Made by a program: the position numbers and the translations under genes. From UHGV virus genome UHGV-1497419: DNA of 64,000 nucleotides; one strand, written 5' to 3'. Positions 3,011 through 47,318 of the stretch are shown here, piece after piece (position 1 is the stretch's first letter; each line of letters opens with the position of its first letter). The notes beneath the pieces are model-generated. The model did not search any database, was not told the DNA's origin, and worked only from the letters and a program-made list of their open reading frames with translations. This DNA is from a virus.

Positions 3011-3183
3011 TTATTAAACATTTTACCAGAACCACCACAAATAGGGCAACAACCTGCTCTTGTATACCCTTCTCCGTTACAGTAGTCACACTTTTTGTGT
3101 TCTGCAAAGTACTTACAAAGAAGGCAAACAAATATTGCTACACTACCAAGTGACAGTAAAATTTCTATCCAATACGCTTGCAT
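3011..3183 (-). CDS. Small membrane protein with C-terminal CxxC...CxxC zinc ribbon
   Basis: Manual translation MQAYWIEILLSLGSVAIFVCLLCKYFAEHKKCDYCNGEGYTRAGCCPICGGSGKMFNK; below the 60-aa cutoff of the ORF track. Confidence 0.3.
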
Positions 3184-3500
3184 GACTCACCTCTCATATT
3201 CTTGTAAAGGATAAAGCTTCTGTCATGGACGATACTTGTAGACACTGCAAAGTTACTTTCAAGCATCTGTTTGTTTGGATTGTAGAAGCTTTCTTTAAAC
3301 TCGTCAAGTGCAAATTGGTGATGTTGCGGAAGACCTTTTACACAGACCTTTATTGTGATTGCTGCTGCGACCTTGCCAGTCAGTTCTTCTTGAGCTGCTA
3401 CCAAGATTTTGTTAAGGAACTTATGACCATCTTCAGGCTTCTTGATGTTCTCCCAACGTTCTTCTAAGACAATGTTGATGTTCATCTCTTTGATTTTCAT
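3165..3500 (-). CDS. Hypothetical protein
   Basis: 111-aa ORF co-oriented with flanking genes. Confidence 0.4.
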   Translation of the reverse strand: MKIKEMNINIVLEERWENIKKPEDGHKFLNKILVAAQEELTGKVAAAITIKVCVKGLPQHHQFALDEFKESFYNPNKQMLESNFAVSTSIVHDRSFILYKNMRGESCKRIG

Positions 3501-3522
3501 AGTTTTCTCCAGAAATTAAAAA

Positions 3523-3538
3523 GGCTCCCGTAGGAGCC
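3523..3538 (-). terminator. Rho-independent terminator downstream of NAMPT-like gene
   Basis: GGCTCC-CGTA-GGAGCC hairpin followed by a U-run on the minus transcript. Confidence 0.55.
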
Positions 3539-3553
3539 TCTTATCATATACTT

Positions 3554-5335
3554 TTAAAGCTGCTTGTCAATATTATTTCGAATATCCCCAAGAGTTGTGT
3601 AACCGAACTGCTCAGAGTCACTAAAGACTAAACGTAAGGCACAAGCTGGGTGGTCAAGTACATCTGCAAAACTCTGGAATCCATAGCCATCTATAGCTTT
3701 CAGCTTGTCACCATCCCACATAGGTGCTACACCACCAAAGGCAGATTTCTTAACACCACTATCTGTTTTAGGGTCTTTTGCAAGCATAATCTCTTTACCA
3801 CCAATGCTTGCAAGAGTTGCTTTGACAGCAAATGCAAAGGTGTCACGAGTCATGTACTGGTAAGTGTAAGAACCTACGCCAAACACTACGTTAGAGCTTG
3901 CAAAACCCATTTCATACAGACGCTTCAGGATTTCGTTTGCACGTTCCAGTGTGATAGAGTCACCATAGATAAGGCCGATGTGCTCATCCAGTACCTTAAA
4001 CCCTTTAGAGTTAACAGTTCCCCCAAAGATGTTGTACAGCGTCTTAATAGCTCCATCAATCTCCGCTACAGGACGTGTTACAACGTTTGCAGAACCAACC
4101 ATATAAGCATTCTTCAGCAGTACTGTATCAGCAACTTCAAAGTCTTCTCTGTCAACAACCATTTCGTAGCCTTCTGACAGTAGCCATCCAGCAATACCAT
4201 AGTTAATGTTTTCAAGCTTCATGTTCAGGACAGAGTTCAGCATTGTATCACTTGCCTCCAGCTTGCTTAGGTGTTCGTAATAAGCCTTCTTAGCACACTC
4301 TAAGTGGATTGCTTTATAACCTGTGACAATATGTACAGGGTCTCCAGAGTCAGGGCGAATTACCAGTTTACCATCACGTTCCATAATTTCTTTACGGAGT
4401 GCTGGTAAGATTTCTGACACAGTTCTCCAGAAGTTATAAGTATCTGAAACAATGCTTGCAATACCAGTTGGGTAAGTTTCTGTTAAGAAACGACGGAAGG
4501 TTTGCAACTCACCTTTAAAACGTCTTTCTTCTTCAATCAATTCGTTACCGCCTTCCCAAGCAATGTTTGCACACATTACAGAGTGTTCAGTGGCTGGTAC
4601 AGAGCTACCAATATCAGAGATTGGGTAAGACTGTCCATAGATTCGTTTAGCCGTATACACAGCAGGGAAGCTATCAGTTCCTTTAAAGCTGGTTAAGTGA
4701 CCTACAGCGTTAAATGCGTCATCAGTAAAGCCGGACATACCACGCATAGCAAAGTCATGGCACTGATAAGGTAAATGTAAGTCGTTGTCGCAAGTAAGGT
4801 CAGCCCACTTCTTACAGATACGTTTATAATGCAATGCAATAGTTGCAATGGTACAAGCCTTCCAAATCTCAGCAGAGAAAGCATCCTCCAGATACCCCGC
4901 TACCCAATGGAAACCTGAAACAGTGTTCTGGAAGACAATCATTGGGACACGCATAGGGACAACTGTACCTTCTTCTACAGCGTATACTTCAACTGGTAGA
5001 TAACCTAAGTCGTGAAGTGCTTCCCAATGCTCTCGACCGATAGCATCTTTACCCAGAACACCATTCATGACTTCTAAGATTTCATCAATGGCTTCTTTTT
5101 TATCACGTTCAAAGAAAGTGGCGTTCCAGTGGTCTATCAAGTAATCTTTAACGAAACGTTGAATACCAAAAGCCACTACACCATCAATTGCTAAGGGGCT
5201 GTTAAACCATTTGTCACTACGTGGTGTCAGGTTGAACATCAAATACTCTGTTGCACTAGGATACTGGTAAACATGACCAGATTTGTAAGCATCTGCGTTT
5301 AAACCTGCTGGTACTGCATAAAGTGATTTAGTCAT
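3554..5335 (-). CDS. Nicotinamide phosphoribosyltransferase-like enzyme (NadV/NAMPT family; possibly a Namat-type nicotinamide ADP-ribose transferase)
   Basis: 593 aa; N-terminal DAYKSGHVYQYP matches the NAMPT DSYKVTHYKQYP signature; C-terminal GLIYGDSI...VVFGVGSYTYQ block. Confidence 0.8.
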   Translation of the reverse strand: MTKSLYAVPAGLNADAYKSGHVYQYPSATEYLMFNLTPRSDKWFNSPLAIDGVVAFGIQRFVKDYLIDHWNATFFERDKKEAIDEILEVMNGVLGKDAIGREHWEALHDLGYLPVEVYAVEEGTVVPMRVPMIVFQNTVSGFHWVAGYLEDAFSAEIWKACTIATIALHYKRICKKWADLTCDNDLHLPYQCHDFAMRGMSGFTDDAFNAVGHLTSFKGTDSFPAVYTAKRIYGQSYPISDIGSSVPATEHSVMCANIAWEGGNELIEEERRFKGELQTFRRFLTETYPTGIASIVSDTYNFWRTVSEILPALRKEIMERDGKLVIRPDSGDPVHIVTGYKAIHLECAKKAYYEHLSKLEASDTMLNSVLNMKLENINYGIAGWLLSEGYEMVVDREDFEVADTVLLKNAYMVGSANVVTRPVAEIDGAIKTLYNIFGGTVNSKGFKVLDEHIGLIYGDSITLERANEILKRLYEMGFASSNVVFGVGSYTYQYMTRDTFAFAVKATLASIGGKEIMLAKDPKTDSGVKKSAFGGVAPMWDGDKLKAIDGYGFQSFADVLDHPACALRLVFSDSEQFGYTTLGDIRNNIDKQL

Positions 5336-5357
5336 CTTTTAATCTCTCTCTCAAAAT

Positions 5358-5373
5358 GGGGCTTTTAAGCCCC
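5358..5373 (-). terminator. Hairpin GGGGCTTTTAAGCCCC between prs-like and NAMPT-like genes
   Basis: Perfect stem plus U-run on the minus transcript; possible attenuator inside the two-gene unit. Confidence 0.45.
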
Positions 5374-5382
5374 TATAAACTT

Positions 5383-6279
5383 TCAATCAAGGTTTGCTAC
5401 AGTAACTTGACTGTAATGTGTTAAGCCACGGTCTTTAGCTTCGCCTAAAGAGTTTGTAGTGTAAATATGGTCGATACCATTGTCAAGAAGGTTTTCAACA
5501 TCTTTAGAGAAGATACCATGTGTTACATAAAGTTCCACACGTTTTGCACCTGCTTCACGAAGATGCTTCGCTGCTTCTATGAAGGTTCGACCACCATCAC
5601 AGATATCATCCAGAATCATGACGGTTTTATCTGTCAAATCAACATCATCAAGGATTCGCATACTAGTAATTTCACCAGTCTTAAGGTTACGCACTTTAGA
5701 CATTGTGATGTATGGTTTATCCACCTCTTTAGCAGTCTCTGCAATCTTCTTAGCAGCACCTGCATCTGGGGCTACTAAGTAATCAATCAGTGGGTCATTT
5801 GCATAGTGGACTGCAATTTCCTTTTGAGGAATACTCTGGAAGCAGTTAAACAGGTTATCTGGTACATAGCTGTGAGGGTCAACTGCACAGACTGCATCAA
5901 AACCCATTGCATTAACCTGTTGTGCAAACACTTTCAAAGCTGCTGCATCACCTTTAAACATGTGACGGTCGTAACGTGCATTTGGCAAATAGTAAAAGAT
6001 AGCAGTCTTCATAGCAAACTTATGAGGTACTAAATCATCAATTGCTTCTTTAGCAAGTGCCACAGCAAACAATGTGTCCTTATCATAACCTTTTACAATC
6101 ATAATCACATTGTTGATAGATGATGCTGCATAAGCAGTAAAATCAACAAACTCTGGCGAAAAGTGTCCACCAATCTCACCAGAAGGGAATTGGACGATGT
6201 TAAACTCTTCTTCATGAGTCCCTTTAGTTGGTGAATGAACTGTAACACGGATAGATGTTTTCATAGTTTTCTCTCTCAA
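5383..6279 (-). CDS. Ribose-phosphate pyrophosphokinase-like enzyme (PRPP synthetase family; possibly an Adps-type ADP-ribose pyrophosphokinase)
   Basis: 298 aa; PRTase-type motif VMILDDICDGGRT and overall Prs-like layout. Confidence 0.7.
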   Translation of the reverse strand: MREKTMKTSIRVTVHSPTKGTHEEEFNIVQFPSGEIGGHFSPEFVDFTAYAASSINNVIMIVKGYDKDTLFAVALAKEAIDDLVPHKFAMKTAIFYYLPNARYDRHMFKGDAAALKVFAQQVNAMGFDAVCAVDPHSYVPDNLFNCFQSIPQKEIAVHYANDPLIDYLVAPDAGAAKKIAETAKEVDKPYITMSKVRNLKTGEITSMRILDDVDLTDKTVMILDDICDGGRTFIEAAKHLREAGAKRVELYVTHGIFSKDVENLLDNGIDHIYTTNSLGEAKDRGLTHYSQVTVANLD

Positions 6280-6554
6280 TCAAAAGTTACGTTTGTTACT
6301 GCCATTGCAGATTTGCATTTTGCAGGGTCTACAACGTGATAAAGTACACTACAGTTACCTGTGCTGTCTGGTACAGGCTTTACCCATTGCTGCTTTATAG
6401 TTGGCTCTCCTAAGTCTTTGTAAGAGCCATCTGTAAAGTTGTTTACCATCTCAAGTGCAATTGGTTCTGGAACATGACCGCGTATCATGTACATCTCACA
6501 ACCATTACCACATTCACTGACTAATGGTAAAATCTCCCACTTCTCTTTAGCCAT
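6276..6554 (-). CDS. Hypothetical protein
   Basis: 92-aa ORF, start overlaps upstream gene stop. Confidence 0.4.
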   Translation of the reverse strand: MAKEKWEILPLVSECGNGCEMYMIRGHVPEPIALEMVNNFTDGSYKDLGEPTIKQQWVKPVPDSTGNCSVLYHVVDPAKCKSAMAVTNVTFD

Positions 6555-7062
6555 TGTAAGTTGCCCTATAAACTGTCTCGAACTTCAACAGGAGAGATAT
6601 TGCCAAATCTGTATAGTTGTTGTCAAGCACATCTGGCATATTATTTTTGATATATTTCTCTTGCTCTTCATAGGTCATCTTAGGGATGCTTAGAAGACTA
6701 TCACCTTGATTCTGATTATCAAGTTTAGTCTGGATAAACCAGTTTGCACAGTGATGCTCACCACCCTTTGTAACAGGTTTGTGGTGGCCTAATGTGAAGG
6801 ATTGACTACCTGTGTATCTGCAAAGTTTATTGAGCACTGTAATGGTGTTCTTCACAACAAAACATTCATACAGGTTGTCTATGGTGTAGTATGGGTAATA
6901 TCGGAATAATGCTCTTTCACGAGTACTCTCACGATTCCAGAGAATCATGTGATTGGAGTTGGAAGGGTCATATTGGTGGAAGTCAATGAACTCTTGACGT
7001 TCCTCAAAGCTGAGCCTTAACACTGACATTGCAGCCGAACGTTTCAGGTTTGACAGGTACAT
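6547..7062 (-). CDS. Hypothetical protein
   Basis: 171-aa ORF, co-oriented. Confidence 0.4.
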   Translation of the reverse strand: MYLSNLKRSAAMSVLRLSFEERQEFIDFHQYDPSNSNHMILWNRESTRERALFRYYPYYTIDNLYECFVVKNTITVLNKLCRYTGSQSFTLGHHKPVTKGGEHHCANWFIQTKLDNQNQGDSLLSIPKMTYEEQEKYIKNNMPDVLDNNYTDLAISLLLKFETVYRATYNG

Positions 7063-35035: not shown

Positions 35036-35407
35036 TTATCTTTCAGTATTCTTTGTGTTCTTTTCAGTAATAGCTTGCAAGGCTGATACTGATTGAGCCA
35101 GATTGTTCACACTGTCAGAGAATTTATCGAGAGTCTTAGTAAGTTTTGCGTTTTCACCCTTAACATTCTCTAACTGAACTTTCTGGTTCTCCATCCCTAG
35201 CTGAATCAGTCTCATGTCAGACTGTAAATCACGAATAGCTGAGTAATTAGATTTGCTATAATTATCTAGCTGCTGTAACTTTGTTGTGACAGACACTTCT
35301 TGCTTACCATCCGAAACTTGCATGGTGGTATACATCCCAATAACACTAAAAATACCAACTACAATTGCACCAATATTATTTTTAAAAGCTTCCTCTAGCC
35401 ACTTCAT
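35036..35407 (-). CDS. Membrane-anchored coiled-coil protein (possible spanin-like or tail-associated)
   Basis: N-terminal transmembrane segment, then coiled-coil-like sequence; 123 aa; no endolysin identified nearby. Confidence 0.3.
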   Translation of the reverse strand: MKWLEEAFKNNIGAIVVGIFSVIGMYTTMQVSDGKQEVSVTTKLQQLDNYSKSNYSAIRDLQSDMRLIQLGMENQKVQLENVKGENAKLTKTLDKFSDSVNNLAQSVSALQAITEKNTKNTER

Positions 35408-35602
35408 TTATTTCTCCCCCTTAAAAGCTTTTTCTAAGTTATCTACGAACTCATCATCAATAGGTGTGTCTGTTTTACTCGCAAGGTATCTTGCAAGCTT
35501 AAAGAACACTTTCTCAATCATGTATTCACTTAGAAGGGATAAAATGAGTTTCCAGAAGAAGCTACCTAGATTTTTTAGAAGAATTGCTAGGATTGTAGGC
35601 AT
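35408..35602 (-). CDS. Small single-pass membrane protein (possible holin-like)
   Basis: 64 aa; one hydrophobic helix with a charged C-terminus. Confidence 0.25.
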   Translation of the reverse strand: MPTILAILLKNLGSFFWKLILSLLSEYMIEKVFFKLARYLASKTDTPIDDEFVDNLEKAFKGEK

Positions 35603-35681: not shown

Positions 35682-38066
35682 TTAAGCAGTTCTTACCCAA
35701 GCCATTAACTTATAGAACTGGTTAGTAACACTAAATGCTGAACCAGAACCAGTACCACCTGTGTTACCACTAACTGTATGGGTGTGAGCACCAATACCTA
35801 CAGAGTGGGTGTGAGCACCAGTGTTACTTGTAGTACCAGACCATGTGTGTGTATGGTTACCAGTTGTGTTAGTGTTAGGGAACTTGTTATCAGTTCTGTC
35901 AAGCCAGTCAAGAGTTCTCGTCTTGTTATTGCTAACAGTTGTATAACCGTACTGAGCATCACCACCATTAACCAATAGCAGACCTAAGTGGTGAGCGTGG
36001 TTACCAGCAGCACTTGTTGTGCCACTTACAGAGTGAGTATGACCACCAGTGCTATTAGTGCTCTTCGTACCATAATCGAAAGACGAAGTGGTAGCAGAGA
36101 AACTATGGGTGTGTGATGGTAAGTTACCAACAGCTAACGTCACAGAGTCTGAACCGCCTGTTGTAGCAACATCTGAACCATTTGCTGCTGCAATTCTGAT
36201 AGTTCTACCAACACCATTGTTCAGGTACGTCCAAGTTAACCCAGGAAGTGCTGTATTAGGGTCAACATTACTGTTAAACCACGTTACAATACCTACTGGA
36301 TAGATTTTATTAAGGTCTGTAGAGTCACTTACTGCCTGTGCAATCTTCTGGTCAGTTTCAGCTTTAGTGTATGCACCAATCTCTGAAGGGTTTGGTCTCT
36401 GAGCTTCAGTGTAAACCTTAGACCATTCAGCCTCAAAACCCTGCCTATCTCTGGCTGTTCTATACCATAAACCACTATTCCTGTAATCAAACCTTAATTG
36501 TGCAGTTGGTGTTGATGCTAACATATTAGCGAATAGGTGTAAGACTAAACGGCTTGAACCACCACCCTTGATAGTCTCTACATAAATTCCTGAAGGTTGG
36601 TTCCAAGCCACACCACCATCAGACTCCTCCACTAAAGCTCTGGATGCTGACCATAAGTACTTTGCATCGGTTGCAGATTTAACGTAGTATCTATCATCTA
36701 AGTTAGACCAATCAGATGGTTGTACCTGACCAGTGATTCTAACAGTTTTATTCAGTAAGAAATCACTCCCCATGTAAATGGTGGTAGCAGTCCTGTCATT
36801 GTGAATAATGAGTCTGGTCGGGTCTGCTGTTTCTCCATTCCCAATATACCACCTTCTCACATCGTCAGCATTATGGGCAGAGAGATACACCTCTTTATCC
36901 TGAATAGTATTCCTTAGTTGCAATAATGGGCCATTCTGTTTAATAACCTGTGCAGACCTGAAAGTGTTTACATCACTTAGCTTAGCAAGATTACTCAAAG
37001 TTCCTGCTGGAATATATCTAGAGTCGATGTTAGTCCAATCAGAAGGTTGAACTTGACCAGTGATTTGGACTGTTCTGCTCATGGCAATGGTGTTACCTAG
37101 TGAGATTTGTGTATTTGCTAAGTAGTTATAGATGTTTACAGTGTTTTCATCGGTATCATTACCAATATACCACTTACGAGTTCCATCTGATTTTTTTGCT
37201 TGGATATACAAAGCAGCAGTTGTATCTACATTTTGCAGAGTGATAGCATTAGCATTCTTCTTAACAACAAAGTTAGTGAAAATATTAGAGCCACTAAAAG
37301 TATTATCACCAGCTAACTGTGCAAATCTCTGATTAGCTACTGTCTGAGTAAAGTATCTAGCATCTAAGTTAGAGAAGTCAGAAGGTTGAACTTGACCCAT
37401 GACTCTTAGTGTCTTGTTAAATGACGCTGTTGCGTCAAGGGTTAACATTGAGCCAGTGGCATGATTGTACAGATAAACATTAGTGTTGTTTGCATTTCCC
37501 TGTCCAACATACCACGTTTGCTGGTTATTAGCATCTCTACCCTGAATATATGAAGCTCCTGCATTAGTTGCTTTCTTAAGGGTTAACTGCTCACCATCAG
37601 TTACAATTGCTTGCCTAATGTTGAAGTTATTTGTTACAGCCAGCCTTGCATATCTTGCATCATTCTCTTCATTAGTTCTCATCCCAAGTTCATTAGGGCT
37701 TGGTTTATTCAGAGTATGATAAACAGTTGCCGACCTTGAAGCATCTGCAATAGTTAGCTTAAGACCGTTTGCGTTAATTTTAAAAGTCTTTAAAACATCC
37801 CCGATAGTAATCTCAGAAGAACCTGTTGGGTCAAATACTGCCTTACCGCCATAGAGTAACTTAACAATCCCTAAGTCACCTGTCATAGTACTACCAGCAA
37901 TCTGAACAAATCTCTCAAGTTTAAAAGATGCTAAGAAGTCTTGATAGGTCATTCGACGGTCTTCATCACCCAGCATTTCAGGTCTCTTTTTAACTCTGAC
38001 ATGAAGAAGGTCATCTGAACGGATTGTATCGATTGAGTTTAATTCACTCAATTTGTAATCTGCCAT
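35682..38066 (-). CDS. Long tail fibre protein with His-rich C-terminal tip domain
   Basis: Three internal QVQPSD(F/W)(S/T)N(L/I)D(A/S/D)RY repeats; C-terminal HTHS...GNHAHH...GNHTHTW...[18 protein letters not shown] repeats like the T4 gp37 tip; track start is TTG, trimmed to ATG behind GAGAGG. Confidence 0.8.
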
Positions 38067-38086
38067 TATAAATTTTCCTCTCAAAA

Positions 38087-38102
38087 GGGGCTATAAAGCC
38101 CC
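38087..38102 (-). terminator. Hairpin GGGGCTATAAAGCCCC between the two tail fibre genes
   Basis: Perfect stem plus U-run on the minus transcript. Confidence 0.45.
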
Positions 38103-38112
38103 TGTAAAGAAA

Positions 38113-39300
38113 TTAAGCTGTTCTCTGCCATACATACAGTACGAAGGATGGCTGCTCAATGTTGAAAGCTTGTCCACCACCAACACTATTCGTGTTTCCA
38201 CTATGTGTATGCTCAGAAGAAGAAACTGTCACAGTACCGTTGTGTGTATGTGAACCAATACCAACTGTATGGCTATGAGCACCAATACCCACTGTGTGAT
38301 TGTGGTTACCAGTTGTGTTAGTGGTAACGCTAAAAGAGTGGGTGTGCGAACCAGCGACTTCGCAGACAGCATCTGCTGAGTACCACGATTGGTCATTCCT
38401 TGTAGACCAAACCATTGCAGGTCTTTCCGACAGACCACCACCTGCTTCATAAGTCAATCTGTGGTTGTGAGCACCAGCAGCACTTGTTGACCCACTACCA
38501 ACGTGATTGTGGTTACCAGTTGTGTTAGTGGTCTTTGTTCCATAGTCAAAAGAGTTGGTAGTCTTAGTTCCATAGTCAAAAGCTGAGATTGAAACAGTTG
38601 CATTATGAGTGTGACCACCACCACTGAGAGACACAGAGTGTGAGTGTTGAGGCATATTATTAACTGACAAAGTGACAGTTGAAGCACCAAATACAGAACC
38701 TGCTGGCCTTGTATCAGAGTCATAACCAACCAACGCCATACCTTTTGAAACTAACTCCCAAGTACCTCCACAAATTAAGTATGTAGAGGGGTTTGCAGAG
38801 TTCATCGAAAGATGGATAGTACCTACTGGATAAGAAGCCTGAACAGCCTTGTACAAGTTATTTACTGCTCTTGCTGTAGCATACTTATCTGCATCCTCGT
38901 TATACAGGTTAGATGTTGTCCAGTTCTGAACATTACTTAAACCAACCTGTGCCTTAGTTGTATTGTGTGGGTTACTCTTGTCCTTGATATGTTGCTGGAC
39001 AAGGCTATTAACCTCTTCTGAAGACATAATCTGTAGATTTGCTCTTGCCTCAGCTACATTAACAATATCTGATAAGTTATTTGCAGCAACTAACTGAAGA
39101 GCATTAATAACATTATCTAAACCAATTTGTGTTTTAGTAACACCATGAGGGTTATTTTTTAGGCTTGCGTGTGGAGCAAGTAATTGCTCAAGAGTACACC
39201 TCTTATCCTCAATACCCTGCTTAAGATGGAAGATATCACTAAGGTCAATTGGTAAGGCTGCTTGAGGCAAGGCACTAATTTGAATTTCACCTACTGCCAT
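38113..39300 (-). CDS. Tail fibre protein (paralogue sharing the His-rich C-terminal domain)
   Basis: C-terminal GSHTHSFSVTTNTTGNHNHTVGIGAHSHTVGIGSHTHNG...; both fibres end in ...W(V/Q)RTA. Confidence 0.75.
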   Translation of the reverse strand: MAVGEIQISALPQAALPIDLSDIFHLKQGIEDKRCTLEQLLAPHASLKNNPHGVTKTQIGLDNVINALQLVAANNLSDIVNVAEARANLQIMSSEEVNSLVQQHIKDKSNPHNTTKAQVGLSNVQNWTTSNLYNEDADKYATARAVNNLYKAVQASYPVGTIHLSMNSANPSTYLICGGTWELVSKGMALVGYDSDTRPAGSVFGASTVTLSVNNMPQHSHSVSLSGGGHTHNATVSISAFDYGTKTTNSFDYGTKTTNTTGNHNHVGSGSTSAAGAHNHRLTYEAGGGLSERPAMVWSTRNDQSWYSADAVCEVAGSHTHSFSVTTNTTGNHNHTVGIGAHSHTVGIGSHTHNGTVTVSSSEHTHSGNTNSVGGGQAFNIEQPSFVLYVWQRTA

Positions 39301-39302
39301 TA

Positions 39303-47318
<8,016 letters not shown>

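What the first reader, a model, noticed from the sequence alone, without database searches (positions are those of the whole stretch)
35682..39300. Two paralogous tail fibre genes sharing a His-rich tip domain; the longer one carries a triplicated internal repeat
Both fibres end in runs of H-x-H motifs ([49 protein letters not shown]) and a similar final block (...WVRTA, ...WQRTA). This resembles the metal-binding tip of T4 gp37. The 795-aa fibre also has three copies of a roughly 110-aa unit marked by QVQPSD(F/W)(S/T)N(L/I)D. Shared tips on different shafts suggest module exchange affecting host range.
Basis: partly seen in the sequence, partly recalled or inferred. Interest (0 to 1): 0.45.

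Follow-up and report, generated by a model that had tools for sequence, protein, structure and literature searches.

The report
Felixounavirus short and long tail fibres
These are the short and long tail fibre genes of a Felix O1-like phage, both ending in a T4 gp37-type histidine-metal needle; this design is already published, so the finding is correct but ordinary.

Summary
Their C-terminal ~230-255 aa are 33% identical (E 1e-36). Both match the solved T4 gp37 tip, 2XGF (E 5e-26 and 7e-20), and every gp37 H-x-H aligns. The long fibre has 6 H-x-H motifs and the short fibre 9. Three ~110-aa repeats are real (36-41% identity, z 18-28; Pfam gp37_trimer x3).

The window is a Felixounavirus. The orthologues in phage Bas63 (gp26 and gp27) have been described by cryo-EM with this architecture, and the gp37 homology was noted in Felix O1 in 2010. 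It is therefore already known.

In this phage the two tips are old paralogues with unrelated head domains. Exchange happens between phages: the three repeats, a Mu-fibre-like domain and both heads are cassettes flanked by conserved junctions.

Three things I did not find in the papers read:
- Repeat cassettes move between slots.
- The long-fibre head cassette is 86% identical in DNA to the gp37 tip of Tequatrovirus AV122, which depends on the LPS outer core.
- Felix O1's own two fibres share one head.

The parts
38113..39300 (-). Short tail fibre (STF) gene, 395 aa; orthologue of Bas63 gp26 and Felix O1 gp76
   Evidence: ORF. PHROG 2097 tail fiber, E 2.5e-136. 75% identical to the Bas63 STF, with the same gene order. 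Described as the STF in PMC12609058.
38881..39300 (-). STF N-terminal part (aa 1-140): baseplate-binding region and helical stalk, with two copies of the motif NPHxxTKxQ(I/V)GLxNV at aa 50 and 110
   Evidence: 93-100% conserved across Felixounaviruses. Motifs found. AF2 gives helices at 37-46, 67-106 and 139-154.
38650..38880 (-). STF collar domain (aa 141-217), T4 gp10 C-terminal / tail-collar-like
   Evidence: Pfam Gp10_C, E 3.3e-18. PDB 2fkk/5hx2 by sequence. Foldseek 2fl8/2fkk, prob 0.95/0.89.
38458..38649 (-). STF needle, ascending strand (aa 218-281), with 4 H-x-H motifs (219, 230, 264, 278) and a duplicated FDYGTKTTN
   Evidence: Aligned to gp37 H883, H915 and H929, plus one extra motif.
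38350..38457 (-). STF head cassette (aa 282-317), the hypervariable presumed receptor-contact loop
   Evidence: Either 92-100% or 8-22% identical in other phages. This allele occurs in 32 phage records, all Felixounavirus. Lowest pLDDT in the model.
38116..38349 (-). STF needle, descending strand (aa 318-395), with 5 H-x-H motifs (319, 333, 342, 351, 364) and a C-terminal strand ending ...YVWQRTA
   Evidence: H319, H321, H351 and H353 are invariant in 58 homologues.
38086..38103 (-). Intergenic hairpin (GGGGCU-UUAU-AGCCCC followed by UUUU) between the STF stop and the LTF ribosome-binding site GAGAGG
   Evidence: Sequence. Folds at -17.2 kcal/mol, z -3.45. The same position is annotated as a rho-independent terminator in phage wV8. 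It did not pass the simple terminator scan.
35682..38066 (-). Long tail fibre (LTF) gene, 794 aa plus stop; orthologue of Bas63 gp27 and Felix O1 gp77
   Evidence: ORF. PHROG 4277 tail fiber, full length, 1299 bits. 97% identical to the LMP34 fibre and 72% to Bas63 gp27.
37680..38066 (-). LTF N-terminal conserved region (aa 1-129), the baseplate (LTF-platform) binding part
   Evidence: 94-100% identical within the genus. One cluster among 136 LTFs. Role taken from PMC12609058.
37353..37679 (-). Shaft repeat 1 (aa 130-238), ending in the junction [11 protein letters not shown]
   Evidence: Pfam gp37_trimer. T7 gp17 4a0t by sequence, E 1e-3. Core pLDDT 74-85. 7 allele clusters.
37014..37352 (-). 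Shaft repeat 2 (aa 239-351), ending in the junction [11 protein letters not shown]
   Evidence: 14 allele clusters. This allele sits in both slot 2 and slot 3 of protein P0208.
36687..37013 (-). Shaft repeat 3 (aa 352-460), ending in the junction [11 protein letters not shown]
   Evidence: 11 allele clusters.
36318..36662 (-). Mu/P2-fibre-like shaft domain (aa 469-583; Pfam gp37_C), a variable cassette
   Evidence: Pfam PF12604, E 3.5e-14. Mu fibre 8ju3 by sequence, E 2.8e-21, and by fold, E 4.6e-5. 14 allele clusters. Laboratory adaptation mutations in a related phage at aa 497 and 534 lie in this region by position; I did not align that phage's fibre to this one.
36117..36311 (-). LTF collar domain (aa 586-650)
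   Evidence: Weak Pfam Gp10_C match. 97-100% conserved in the genus.
35988..36116 (-). LTF needle, ascending strand (aa 651-693), with 3 H-x-H motifs (652, 676, 690; the last is HAHH)
   Evidence: numbers are +1. H652, H654, H676 and H678 are invariant in 43 LTFs.
35856..35987 (-). LTF head cassette (aa 694-737), the presumed receptor-contact loop
   Evidence: Either 86-100% or 2-18% identical in other phages. 13 allele clusters.
35685..35855 (-). LTF needle, descending strand (aa 738-794), with 3 H-x-H motifs (738, 752, 761) and a C-terminal strand ...LMAWVRTA
   Evidence: One cluster among 136 LTFs.
35773..36081 (-). 309-nt block (LTF aa 662-765: upper needle, head and first two descending His boxes) shared with T-even gp37 genes
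   Evidence: 86% DNA identity to Tequatrovirus AV122 gene 37 and 84% to SHBML-50-1, with unrelated flanks. tblastn finds this block in 30 Felixounavirus and 6 Tequatrovirus records.
39303..39605 (-). 100-aa gene upstream of the STF: the LTF-platform protein (Bas63 gp25 orthologue, T4 gp9-like)
   Evidence: PHROG 4141, E 9.5e-62. Synteny with bas63_0025. Role taken from PMC12609058.

Best explanation
The region encodes the two receptor-binding fibres of a Felixounavirus (Felix O1-like myophage): a short fibre (395 aa) and a long fibre (794 aa).

By homology, each is a homotrimer that ends in a T4 gp37-type tip. The chain leaves a collar domain, runs up a thin beta needle, forms a small head, runs back down the needle, and ends with a strand in the collar. 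Each H-x-H motif from the three chains supplies six histidines that hold one metal ion (iron in T4) on the fibre axis. This predicts 6 ions in the long fibre and 9 in the short one, which stiffen the needle.

The head at the far end contacts the host, most likely lipopolysaccharide core sugars.

The long fibre's shaft is made of three homologous ~110-aa beta domains and one Mu-fibre-like domain. These are joined by conserved helical junctions (QVQPSDxxNxD-RY).

Host range evolves by homologous recombination in the conserved junctions and His-box segments. This swaps individual cassettes between co-infecting phages, including T-even phages.

Shown here: homology, motif alignment, repeat structure, mosaic pattern, and cassette sharing.

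Inferred: trimer, metal binding, LPS as receptor, and recombination at the junctions as the mechanism.
For: Identity of the phage: megablast finds 241 Felix O1-like phage records, the best at 95% over the full length. Gene order matches Bas63 and Felix O1.

Tip: both proteins hit the gp37 tip 2XGF by sequence, E 7e-20 and 5e-26. A three-way alignment puts every gp37 H-x-H (883, 915, 929, 966, 980, 989, 998) opposite a motif in the STF, and six of the seven opposite a motif in the LTF. The histidines are invariant in 58 STF and 43 LTF homologues. The AF2 monomer of the STF gives a long hairpin (strands 222-273 and 320-369), a low-confidence head, and a final strand at 389-393.

Cryo-EM of the orthologues in Bas63 describes collar, needle with H-x-H, and head for both fibres (PMC12609058).

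Shaft: Pfam gp37_trimer x3 and gp37_C. Fold matches to the Mu fibre, T4 gp34 and T7 gp17.

Mosaic: segment identities are bimodal. DNA identity shows conserved islands at the three junctions, the collar and the descending needle, between cassettes at 35-55%. 136 LTFs give 7, 14, 11, 14 and 13 allele clusters for R1, R2, R3, the Mu-like domain and the head, in 78 distinct combinations.

Receptor: Felixounaviruses depend on LPS (PMC8594841). Tequatrovirus AV122, whose gp37 carries a ~90% identical head block, cannot infect waaC or waaR LPS-core mutants (PMC10844046).
Against: No direct evidence here for trimerisation, metal content or receptor.

Monomer AF2 models are weak: mean pLDDT 63.7 for the STF, 49.1 for the LTF, and below 40 over the LTF tip. 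Foldseek did not retrieve 2XGF.

No gp38-like assembly chaperone lies next to the fibre genes, whereas T4 gp37 needs one, so assembly may differ.

The LPS inference for the LTF head rests on one T-even phage, for which a protein co-receptor was not excluded.
Confidence: 0.88

Rival explanations
1. One reading: the two fibres carry a recently shared (exchanged) tip module on different shafts, so both recognise the same receptor.
For: Both tips are gp37-like, and short DNA matches (34-81 nt, 76-88%) exist between the His boxes of the two genes. In Felix O1 the two fibres do share one head and flanking needle: 270 nt at 81% identity, heads 26 of 28 aa identical, whole-tip identity 51%.
Against: In this window tip identity is 33%. 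The heads ([17 protein letters not shown]... and LTYEAGGGLSERPAMVW...) are unalignable, and needle lengths differ (6 against 9 H-x-H). LTF-to-own-STF tip identity is 27-36% in 9 of the 10 phages compared.
Confidence: 0.05
2. The variable shaft cassettes (three repeats and the Mu-like domain) are not passive spacers. They are additional binding modules, either lateral glycan-binding sites or sheath-docking surfaces for the retracted fibre, and their shuffling is driven by selection on host range.
For: Shaft cassettes are as diverse as the heads: median pairwise identity is 37-43%, against 96% for the N-terminus and collar. They move between slots. Experimental-evolution mutations in a Felixounavirus LTF at aa 497 and 534 fall, by position, in the Mu-like region. 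The Bas63 authors called the lack of conservation there unexpected.
Against: There are no binding data. Divergence could reflect old allele lineages under weak constraint that are spread by recombination. The number of units is fixed at three in every LTF examined, which fits a length-setting role.
Confidence: 0.2
3. The H-x-H runs and the repeats are compositional or low-complexity artefacts with no structural meaning.
For: The tips are rich in G, T, S and H and contain short tandem units.
Against: Shuffle tests, repeat z-scores of 18-28, curated Pfam matches, the match to a solved structure, and invariant histidines across homologues down to 28% identity.
Confidence: 0.01

Closest known systems
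Bas63 (Escherichia phage JohannRWettstein) STF gp26 and LTF gp27; cryo-EM, Sci Adv 2025 (PMC12609058)
   Same: Same genus, same gene order (wedge 1, LTF platform, STF, LTF, two small ORFs, thymidylate synthase). 75% and 72% protein identity. Both fibres have a gp37-like collar, needle and head with H-x-H motifs. The LTF has beta repeat domains separated by helical junctions.
   Different: Both head cassettes differ (8-16% identity). This STF has 9 H-x-H against 7 in Bas63. The LTF's extra histidine is HAHH rather than HHxH. R1, R2 and R3 are different alleles (57, 50 and 77%).
T4 gp37 receptor-binding tip (PDB 2XGF)
   Same: Homologous collar, needle and C-terminal strand. All H-x-H positions align. 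The FDYGTK...GGHTHS and GIGAHTHTV boxes are conserved.
   Different: Motif number is 6 and 9 against 7. The heads are unrelated to T4's. The fibre is a single protein attached to the baseplate, not the distal half of a four-protein fibre. No gp38 chaperone gene is adjacent. The receptor is probably LPS only.
gp37 of Tequatrovirus AV122 and SHBML-50-1
   Same: The block LTF aa 662-765 (upper needle, head, lower needle) is ~90% identical in protein and 84-86% in DNA over ~309 nt.
   Different: Everything outside the block is unrelated or only distantly related. These gp37 proteins have more descending His boxes and a gp38 chaperone gene downstream.
T4 gp34 rod domains, the T7 gp17 pyramid domain, and the Mu fibre S
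   Same: The three shaft repeats match Pfam gp37_trimer and T7 gp17 (E 1e-3 by sequence; Foldseek prob 1.0). The next domain matches Mu S (E 2.8e-21). Foldseek also hits T4 gp34 4uxg, E 1.9e-4.
   Different: Here they are strung as three tandem, freely exchangeable units in a single-chain fibre.
His-box recombination model for T-even distal fibre genes
   Same: Variable adhesin segments are flanked by conserved G-x-H-x-H boxes that could serve as crossover sites. The cassette shared with AV122 starts and ends in such boxes.
   Different: Here the exchange crosses phage families (Ounavirinae and Straboviridae). A second set of conserved junctions (QVQPSD...) does the same job in the shaft.

Membership tests
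T4 gp37-type receptor-binding tip (collar, needle, head) | Significant sequence homology to the gp37 C-terminal region | tested here: met
   phmmer against PDB: 2xgf_A at E 7.3e-20 (LTF) and 5.4e-26 (STF).
T4 gp37-type receptor-binding tip (collar, needle, head) | H-x-H motifs at the positions of the metal-coordinating histidines, on both ascending and descending strands | tested here: met
   The alignment shows 3+3 (LTF) and 4+5 (STF) against 3+4 in T4. The histidines are invariant in homologues.
T4 gp37-type receptor-binding tip (collar, needle, head) | Chain reverses at the head and the C-terminal strand returns to the collar, giving a six-stranded needle in the trimer | tested here: inconclusive
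   The AF2 monomer of the STF shows an up and down hairpin and a terminal strand, but mean pLDDT is 63.7 and Foldseek did not retrieve 2XGF. The LTF tip has pLDDT below 40. The topology is supported indirectly by cryo-EM of the Bas63 orthologues.
T4 gp37-type receptor-binding tip (collar, needle, head) | Bound iron or other metal ions on the trimer axis | not testable with these tools
   Needs metal analysis or a trimer structure.
T4 gp37-type receptor-binding tip (collar, needle, head) | Dedicated gp38-type assembly chaperone encoded immediately downstream | tested here: not met
   The downstream ORFs (64 aa and 123 aa) have no gp38 or chaperone match in Pfam or PHROGs. This is an accessory feature, not a fold-defining one. 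Only the two adjacent ORFs were checked, not the rest of the window.
Felixounavirus STF/LTF pair (Bas63 gp26/gp27, Felix O1 gp76/gp77) | Orthology: full-length similarity and conserved gene order after the baseplate wedge and LTF-platform genes | tested here: met
   LTF is 62-97% and STF 74-99% identical to the 13 members of the genus compared, and 50-70% in the sister genera Suspvirus (SUSP2) and Mooglevirus (Mordin). Synteny is shown.
Felixounavirus STF/LTF pair (Bas63 gp26/gp27, Felix O1 gp76/gp77) | LTF shaft of repeated beta domains separated by helical junctions | tested here: met
   Three sequence repeats. The AF2 model has beta cores at 152-216, 287-329 and 394-438, with helices at 228-248, 341-363 and 450-466.
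Pfam PF20744 gp37_trimer repeat | Score above the curated cut-off | tested here: met
   172.9 bits against a cut-off of 21.7, in 3 stretches.

The most novel reading that the evidence does not exclude
The long fibre is a combinatorial array of exchangeable binding modules rather than one tip on an inert shaft. The three repeat cassettes can occupy any slot. Together with the Mu-like domain they are shuffled under selection, because they contact host surface glycans or the sheath. The receptor-contact head can be traded even with T-even gp37, so Felix O1-like and T4-like phages draw on one shared pool of LPS-binding tips.
Probability: 0.15. Interest if true: 0.5.

Novelty: already known. Interest (0 to 1): 0.22.

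Why it matters
Felix O1-like phages are used for Salmonella typing and as biocontrol and therapy candidates, and their host range is set by these two fibres. The basic design is published, so this finding adds no new kind of system.

The practical value is the map. Conserved junctions (QVQPSD... in the shaft, His boxes in the needle) mark where cassettes can be swapped, which helps host-range engineering. The near-identical head in an LPS-core-dependent T-even phage gives a testable receptor assignment for this long fibre.

Tried and rejected
1. A self-BLASTP of the long fibre found no off-diagonal hits. The repeats were recovered only by motif-anchored alignment and a profile. The BLAST negative was therefore a sensitivity problem, not evidence against repeats.

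2. I looked for further diverged copies of the repeat, because Bas63 is described as having five beta domains. The profile finds only three copies in the LTF and nothing convincing in the STF. The other two beta domains are not sequence repeats.

3. The STF reached pLDDT 63.7 and the LTF 49.1. Foldseek against PDB recovered only the collar (gp10) for the STF, and Mu, gp34 and gp17 for the LTF shaft. It did not recover 2XGF. Monomer prediction cannot test an intertwined trimer, so this counts as inconclusive, not as refutation.

4. The simple terminator scan did not call the STF-LTF intergenic hairpin. Folding supports the hairpin, but its function is untested.

5. I considered that the near-perfect co-occurrence of this LTF head with this STF head (30 of 32 records) shows co-selection. 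I rejected that as proof, because patch-wise replacement of interior cassettes leaves flanking markers linked, and many of the records are close relatives or duplicates.

6. The T4 gp37 structure paper (PMC2996694) is not held in the library. Statements about iron coordination are taken from the Bas63 paper's summary and from my own knowledge.
Full report
**What is there**

Positions 35682-39300 hold two adjacent minus-strand genes. The upstream one, 38113..39300, encodes 395 aa. The downstream one runs from an ATG at 38066 to a stop at 35682-35684 and encodes 794 aa. Searches used a translation with one extra leading residue, so their residue numbers are +1.

The genes are separated by 46 nt. 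This spacer contains a stable hairpin followed by UUUU, and then a GAGAGG ribosome-binding site.

Upstream lie a 100-aa gene, a 285-aa baseplate gene and a Baseplate_J gene. Downstream lie two small ORFs and, on the other strand, thymidylate synthase and dihydrofolate reductase.

Megablast of the region finds 241 phage records, nearly all Felix O1-like phages of Escherichia, Salmonella and Shigella. The best, LMP34/33/25, are 95% identical over the full length. The window therefore comes from a Felixounavirus.

**Checking the observation**

Every quoted motif is present.
- The long fibre (LTF) has H-x-H motifs at residues 652, 676 and 690, then 738, 752 and 761.
- The short fibre (STF) has them at 219, 230, 264 and 278, then 319, 333, 342, 351 and 364.
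- Shuffling the tip residues gives on average 1.0 and 1.6 such motifs. Only 3 and 0 of 20000 shuffles reach the observed 6 and 9.

The two proteins are similar only at their C-termini: LTF 566-794 against STF 140-395, 33% identity, E 1e-36.

The QVQPSD motif sits at LTF residues 225, 338 and 447. The three units between these motifs are 36-41% identical, with alignment z-scores of 18-28. A profile built from them finds exactly three copies. Pfam gp37_trimer matches three stretches at E 1.4e-51.

**What it is**

Both proteins match the solved T4 gp37 receptor-binding tip (2XGF) directly by sequence, at E 7e-20 and 5e-26.

In a three-way alignment, each of gp37's seven H-x-H motifs (883, 915, 929, 966, 980, 989, 998) lies opposite a motif in the STF. 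The STF has two additional motifs. The LTF lacks only the last one. The C-terminal strand (...AFNYIVRLA in T4) corresponds to ...LMAWVRTA and ...LYVWQRTA.

The segment before the needle matches the T4 gp10 C-terminal (collar) domain. The histidines are invariant across 58 STF homologues, down to 28% identity, and across 43 LTF homologues.

In the LTF shaft, the three repeats match T7 gp17 by sequence (E 1e-3; by my arithmetic on the tagged 371-553 construct, its pyramid domain). The following domain (aa 482-575) matches the Mu tail fibre S (E 2.8e-21). The AF2 model's confident parts give fold matches to the Mu fibre, T4 gp34 and T7 gp17.

**This is already published**

The Felix O1 genome record annotates both genes as "putative tail fiber protein GP37". 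The 2010 genome paper notes the gp37 homology of both C-termini (PMC3185647).

The 2025 cryo-EM study of the Felixounavirus Bas63 (PMC12609058) makes the following points:
- It identifies gp26 as a 430-Å short fibre and gp27 as a 630-Å long fibre.
- It describes for both a gp37-like collar, an H-x-H needle and a head.
- It counts the di-histidine motifs: 7 in the STF, and 6 plus an extra histidine in the LTF.
- It describes five beta repeat domains with helical junctions in the LTF, resembling T4 gp34.
- It identifies the 100-aa upstream gene as a gp9-like LTF platform.
- It reports that both tips and, unexpectedly, the LTF repeat domains vary across the genus.

The window's proteins are 75% and 72% identical to Bas63 gp26 and gp27, in the same gene order.

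**How it most likely works**

By homology, each fibre is a trimer. Each H-x-H from the three chains forms one axial six-histidine metal site, which stiffens a thin needle. This predicts 6 sites in the LTF and 9 in the STF. The head at the far end contacts the host.

Felixounaviruses depend on LPS rather than on protein receptors (PMC8594841). Trimerisation, metal binding and the receptor are inferences; none could be tested here.

Monomer AF2 models were weak (pLDDT 63.7 and 49.1). The STF model does show the expected up and down hairpin with a low-confidence head and a terminal strand. Foldseek did not retrieve 2XGF.

No gp38-type chaperone gene is adjacent.

**The "module exchange" interpretation**

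In this phage the two tips are old paralogues:
- They are 33% identical.
- Their heads cannot be aligned ([17 protein letters not shown]... against LTYEAGGGLSERPAMVW...).
- Their needle lengths differ.
- Across 10 phages, LTF-to-own-STF tip identity is 27-36%, with one exception.

"Shared tips on different shafts" is therefore not evidence of exchange here.

Exchange between phages is nonetheless pervasive. I compared 16 LTFs and 17 STFs taken from 17 related loci.
- The N-termini and collars are 94-100% identical within the genus.
- R1, R2, R3, the Mu-like domain and both heads are each either above about 85% or far lower (heads about 10%, shaft cassettes 26-79%). They vary independently of one another.
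- Sliding DNA identity shows conserved islands at exactly the three QVQPSD junctions, the collar and the descending needle, between cassettes at 35-55%.
- Among 136 LTFs, clustering at 80% identity gives 7, 14, 11, 14 and 13 allele clusters for R1, R2, R3, the Mu-like domain and the head. These occur in 78 distinct combinations. The window's combination occurs 3 times.

**Three points beyond the papers I read**

1. Repeat cassettes are not tied to a slot.
   - ECP2307's R1 is 83% identical to P0157's R3, but only 54% to P0157's own R1.
   - P0208 carries the window's R2 allele in both slot 2 (86%) and slot 3 (87%).
   - Bas63's R1 is 69% identical to ECP2307's R3.
   - The number of units is always three.

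2. The LTF block aa 662-765 (window 35773..36081) is 86% and 84% identical in DNA, and about 90% in protein, to the gp37 tips of Tequatrovirus AV122 and SHBML-50-1.
   - The flanks are unrelated. The block begins at SSFDYGTK...GGHTHS and ends at GIGAHTHTV, which are His boxes.
   - AV122 fails to infect waaC and waaR LPS-core mutants (PMC10844046). This makes the LPS outer core the best guess for this LTF head.

3. In Felix O1 itself, the LTF and STF carry almost the same head and flanking needle. The heads are 26 of 28 aa identical, and 270 nt are 81% identical. Exchange between the two fibres does occur in the genus, just not in this phage.

**Head linkage**

This LTF head and this STF head co-occur in 30 of the 32 Felixounavirus records that have the STF head. 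Patch-wise recombination and relatedness among the records can explain this without co-selection, so I draw no conclusion from it.

**Verdict**

The specific module-exchange inference is wrong for this phage but right for the family. The fibre pair is a known kind, about 95% identical in DNA to deposited phages, with a published architecture. Interest is low. The cassette map and the T-even link are modest additions on a well-known theme, tail-fibre mosaicism.

Noticed in passing
L001 (Felix O1, AF320576) locus 3075-6640: Felix O1's own long and short fibres share an almost identical head plus flanking needle. The heads are FGGRYGGDSIGGKHRVHVSGTEQVSSVA and VGGRYGGDSIGGKHRVQVSGTEQVSSVA, and 270 nt are 81% identical. 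This implies a head exchange between the two fibre genes in that lineage, and possibly one receptor for both fibres.
   Followed up: partly
window 35773..36081 (minus); L019 (AV122) and L020 (SHBML-50-1): The long-fibre head cassette is shared at 84-86% DNA identity with gene 37 of a few T4-like phages. The boundaries lie in His boxes, so this is a cassette exchange between phage families.
   Followed up: yes
LTF homologues P0157 and P0208; L002 (Bas63); L004 (ECP2307): Shaft repeat cassettes occur in different slots in different phages, and one protein (P0208) carries the same allele in slots 2 and 3. The number of units stays at three.
   Followed up: yes
window 38086..38103 (minus): A stable hairpin followed by UUUU lies between the short-fibre stop and the long-fibre start (-17.2 kcal/mol, z -3.45). 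The same position is annotated as a terminator in phage wV8. It might set the ratio of the two fibre transcripts.
   Followed up: partly
window 35036..35602 (minus): Two small ORFs lie downstream of the long fibre. One is 64 aa with a hydrophobic N-terminus (PHROG 402). The other is 123 aa with a hydrophobic N-terminus and weak matches to coiled-coil families (PHROG 4038), and some phage records annotate it as a holin. Neither resembles a fibre chaperone.
   Followed up: partly
STF homologues P0001-P0072 and LTF homologues P0121-P0240: The number of H-x-H motifs varies in steps. Short fibres have 6 (13 proteins), 7 (3), 8 (1), 9 (50), 10 (2) or 11 (1). Long fibres have 6 (104) or 4 (16). Needle length is therefore itself a variable trait.
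   Followed up: partly
L010 (PV390658, phage vB_EcoM_P54): This 88-kb Felix O1-like genome is filed in GenBank under Straboviridae; Tequatrovirus. That looks like a taxonomy error in the record.
   Followed up: no
phage records LR597663 (VpaE1_ev78) and LC473039 (L27): These are the only two Felixounavirus records that carry this window's short-fibre head without its long-fibre head. They are natural test cases for what each head contributes.
   Followed up: no
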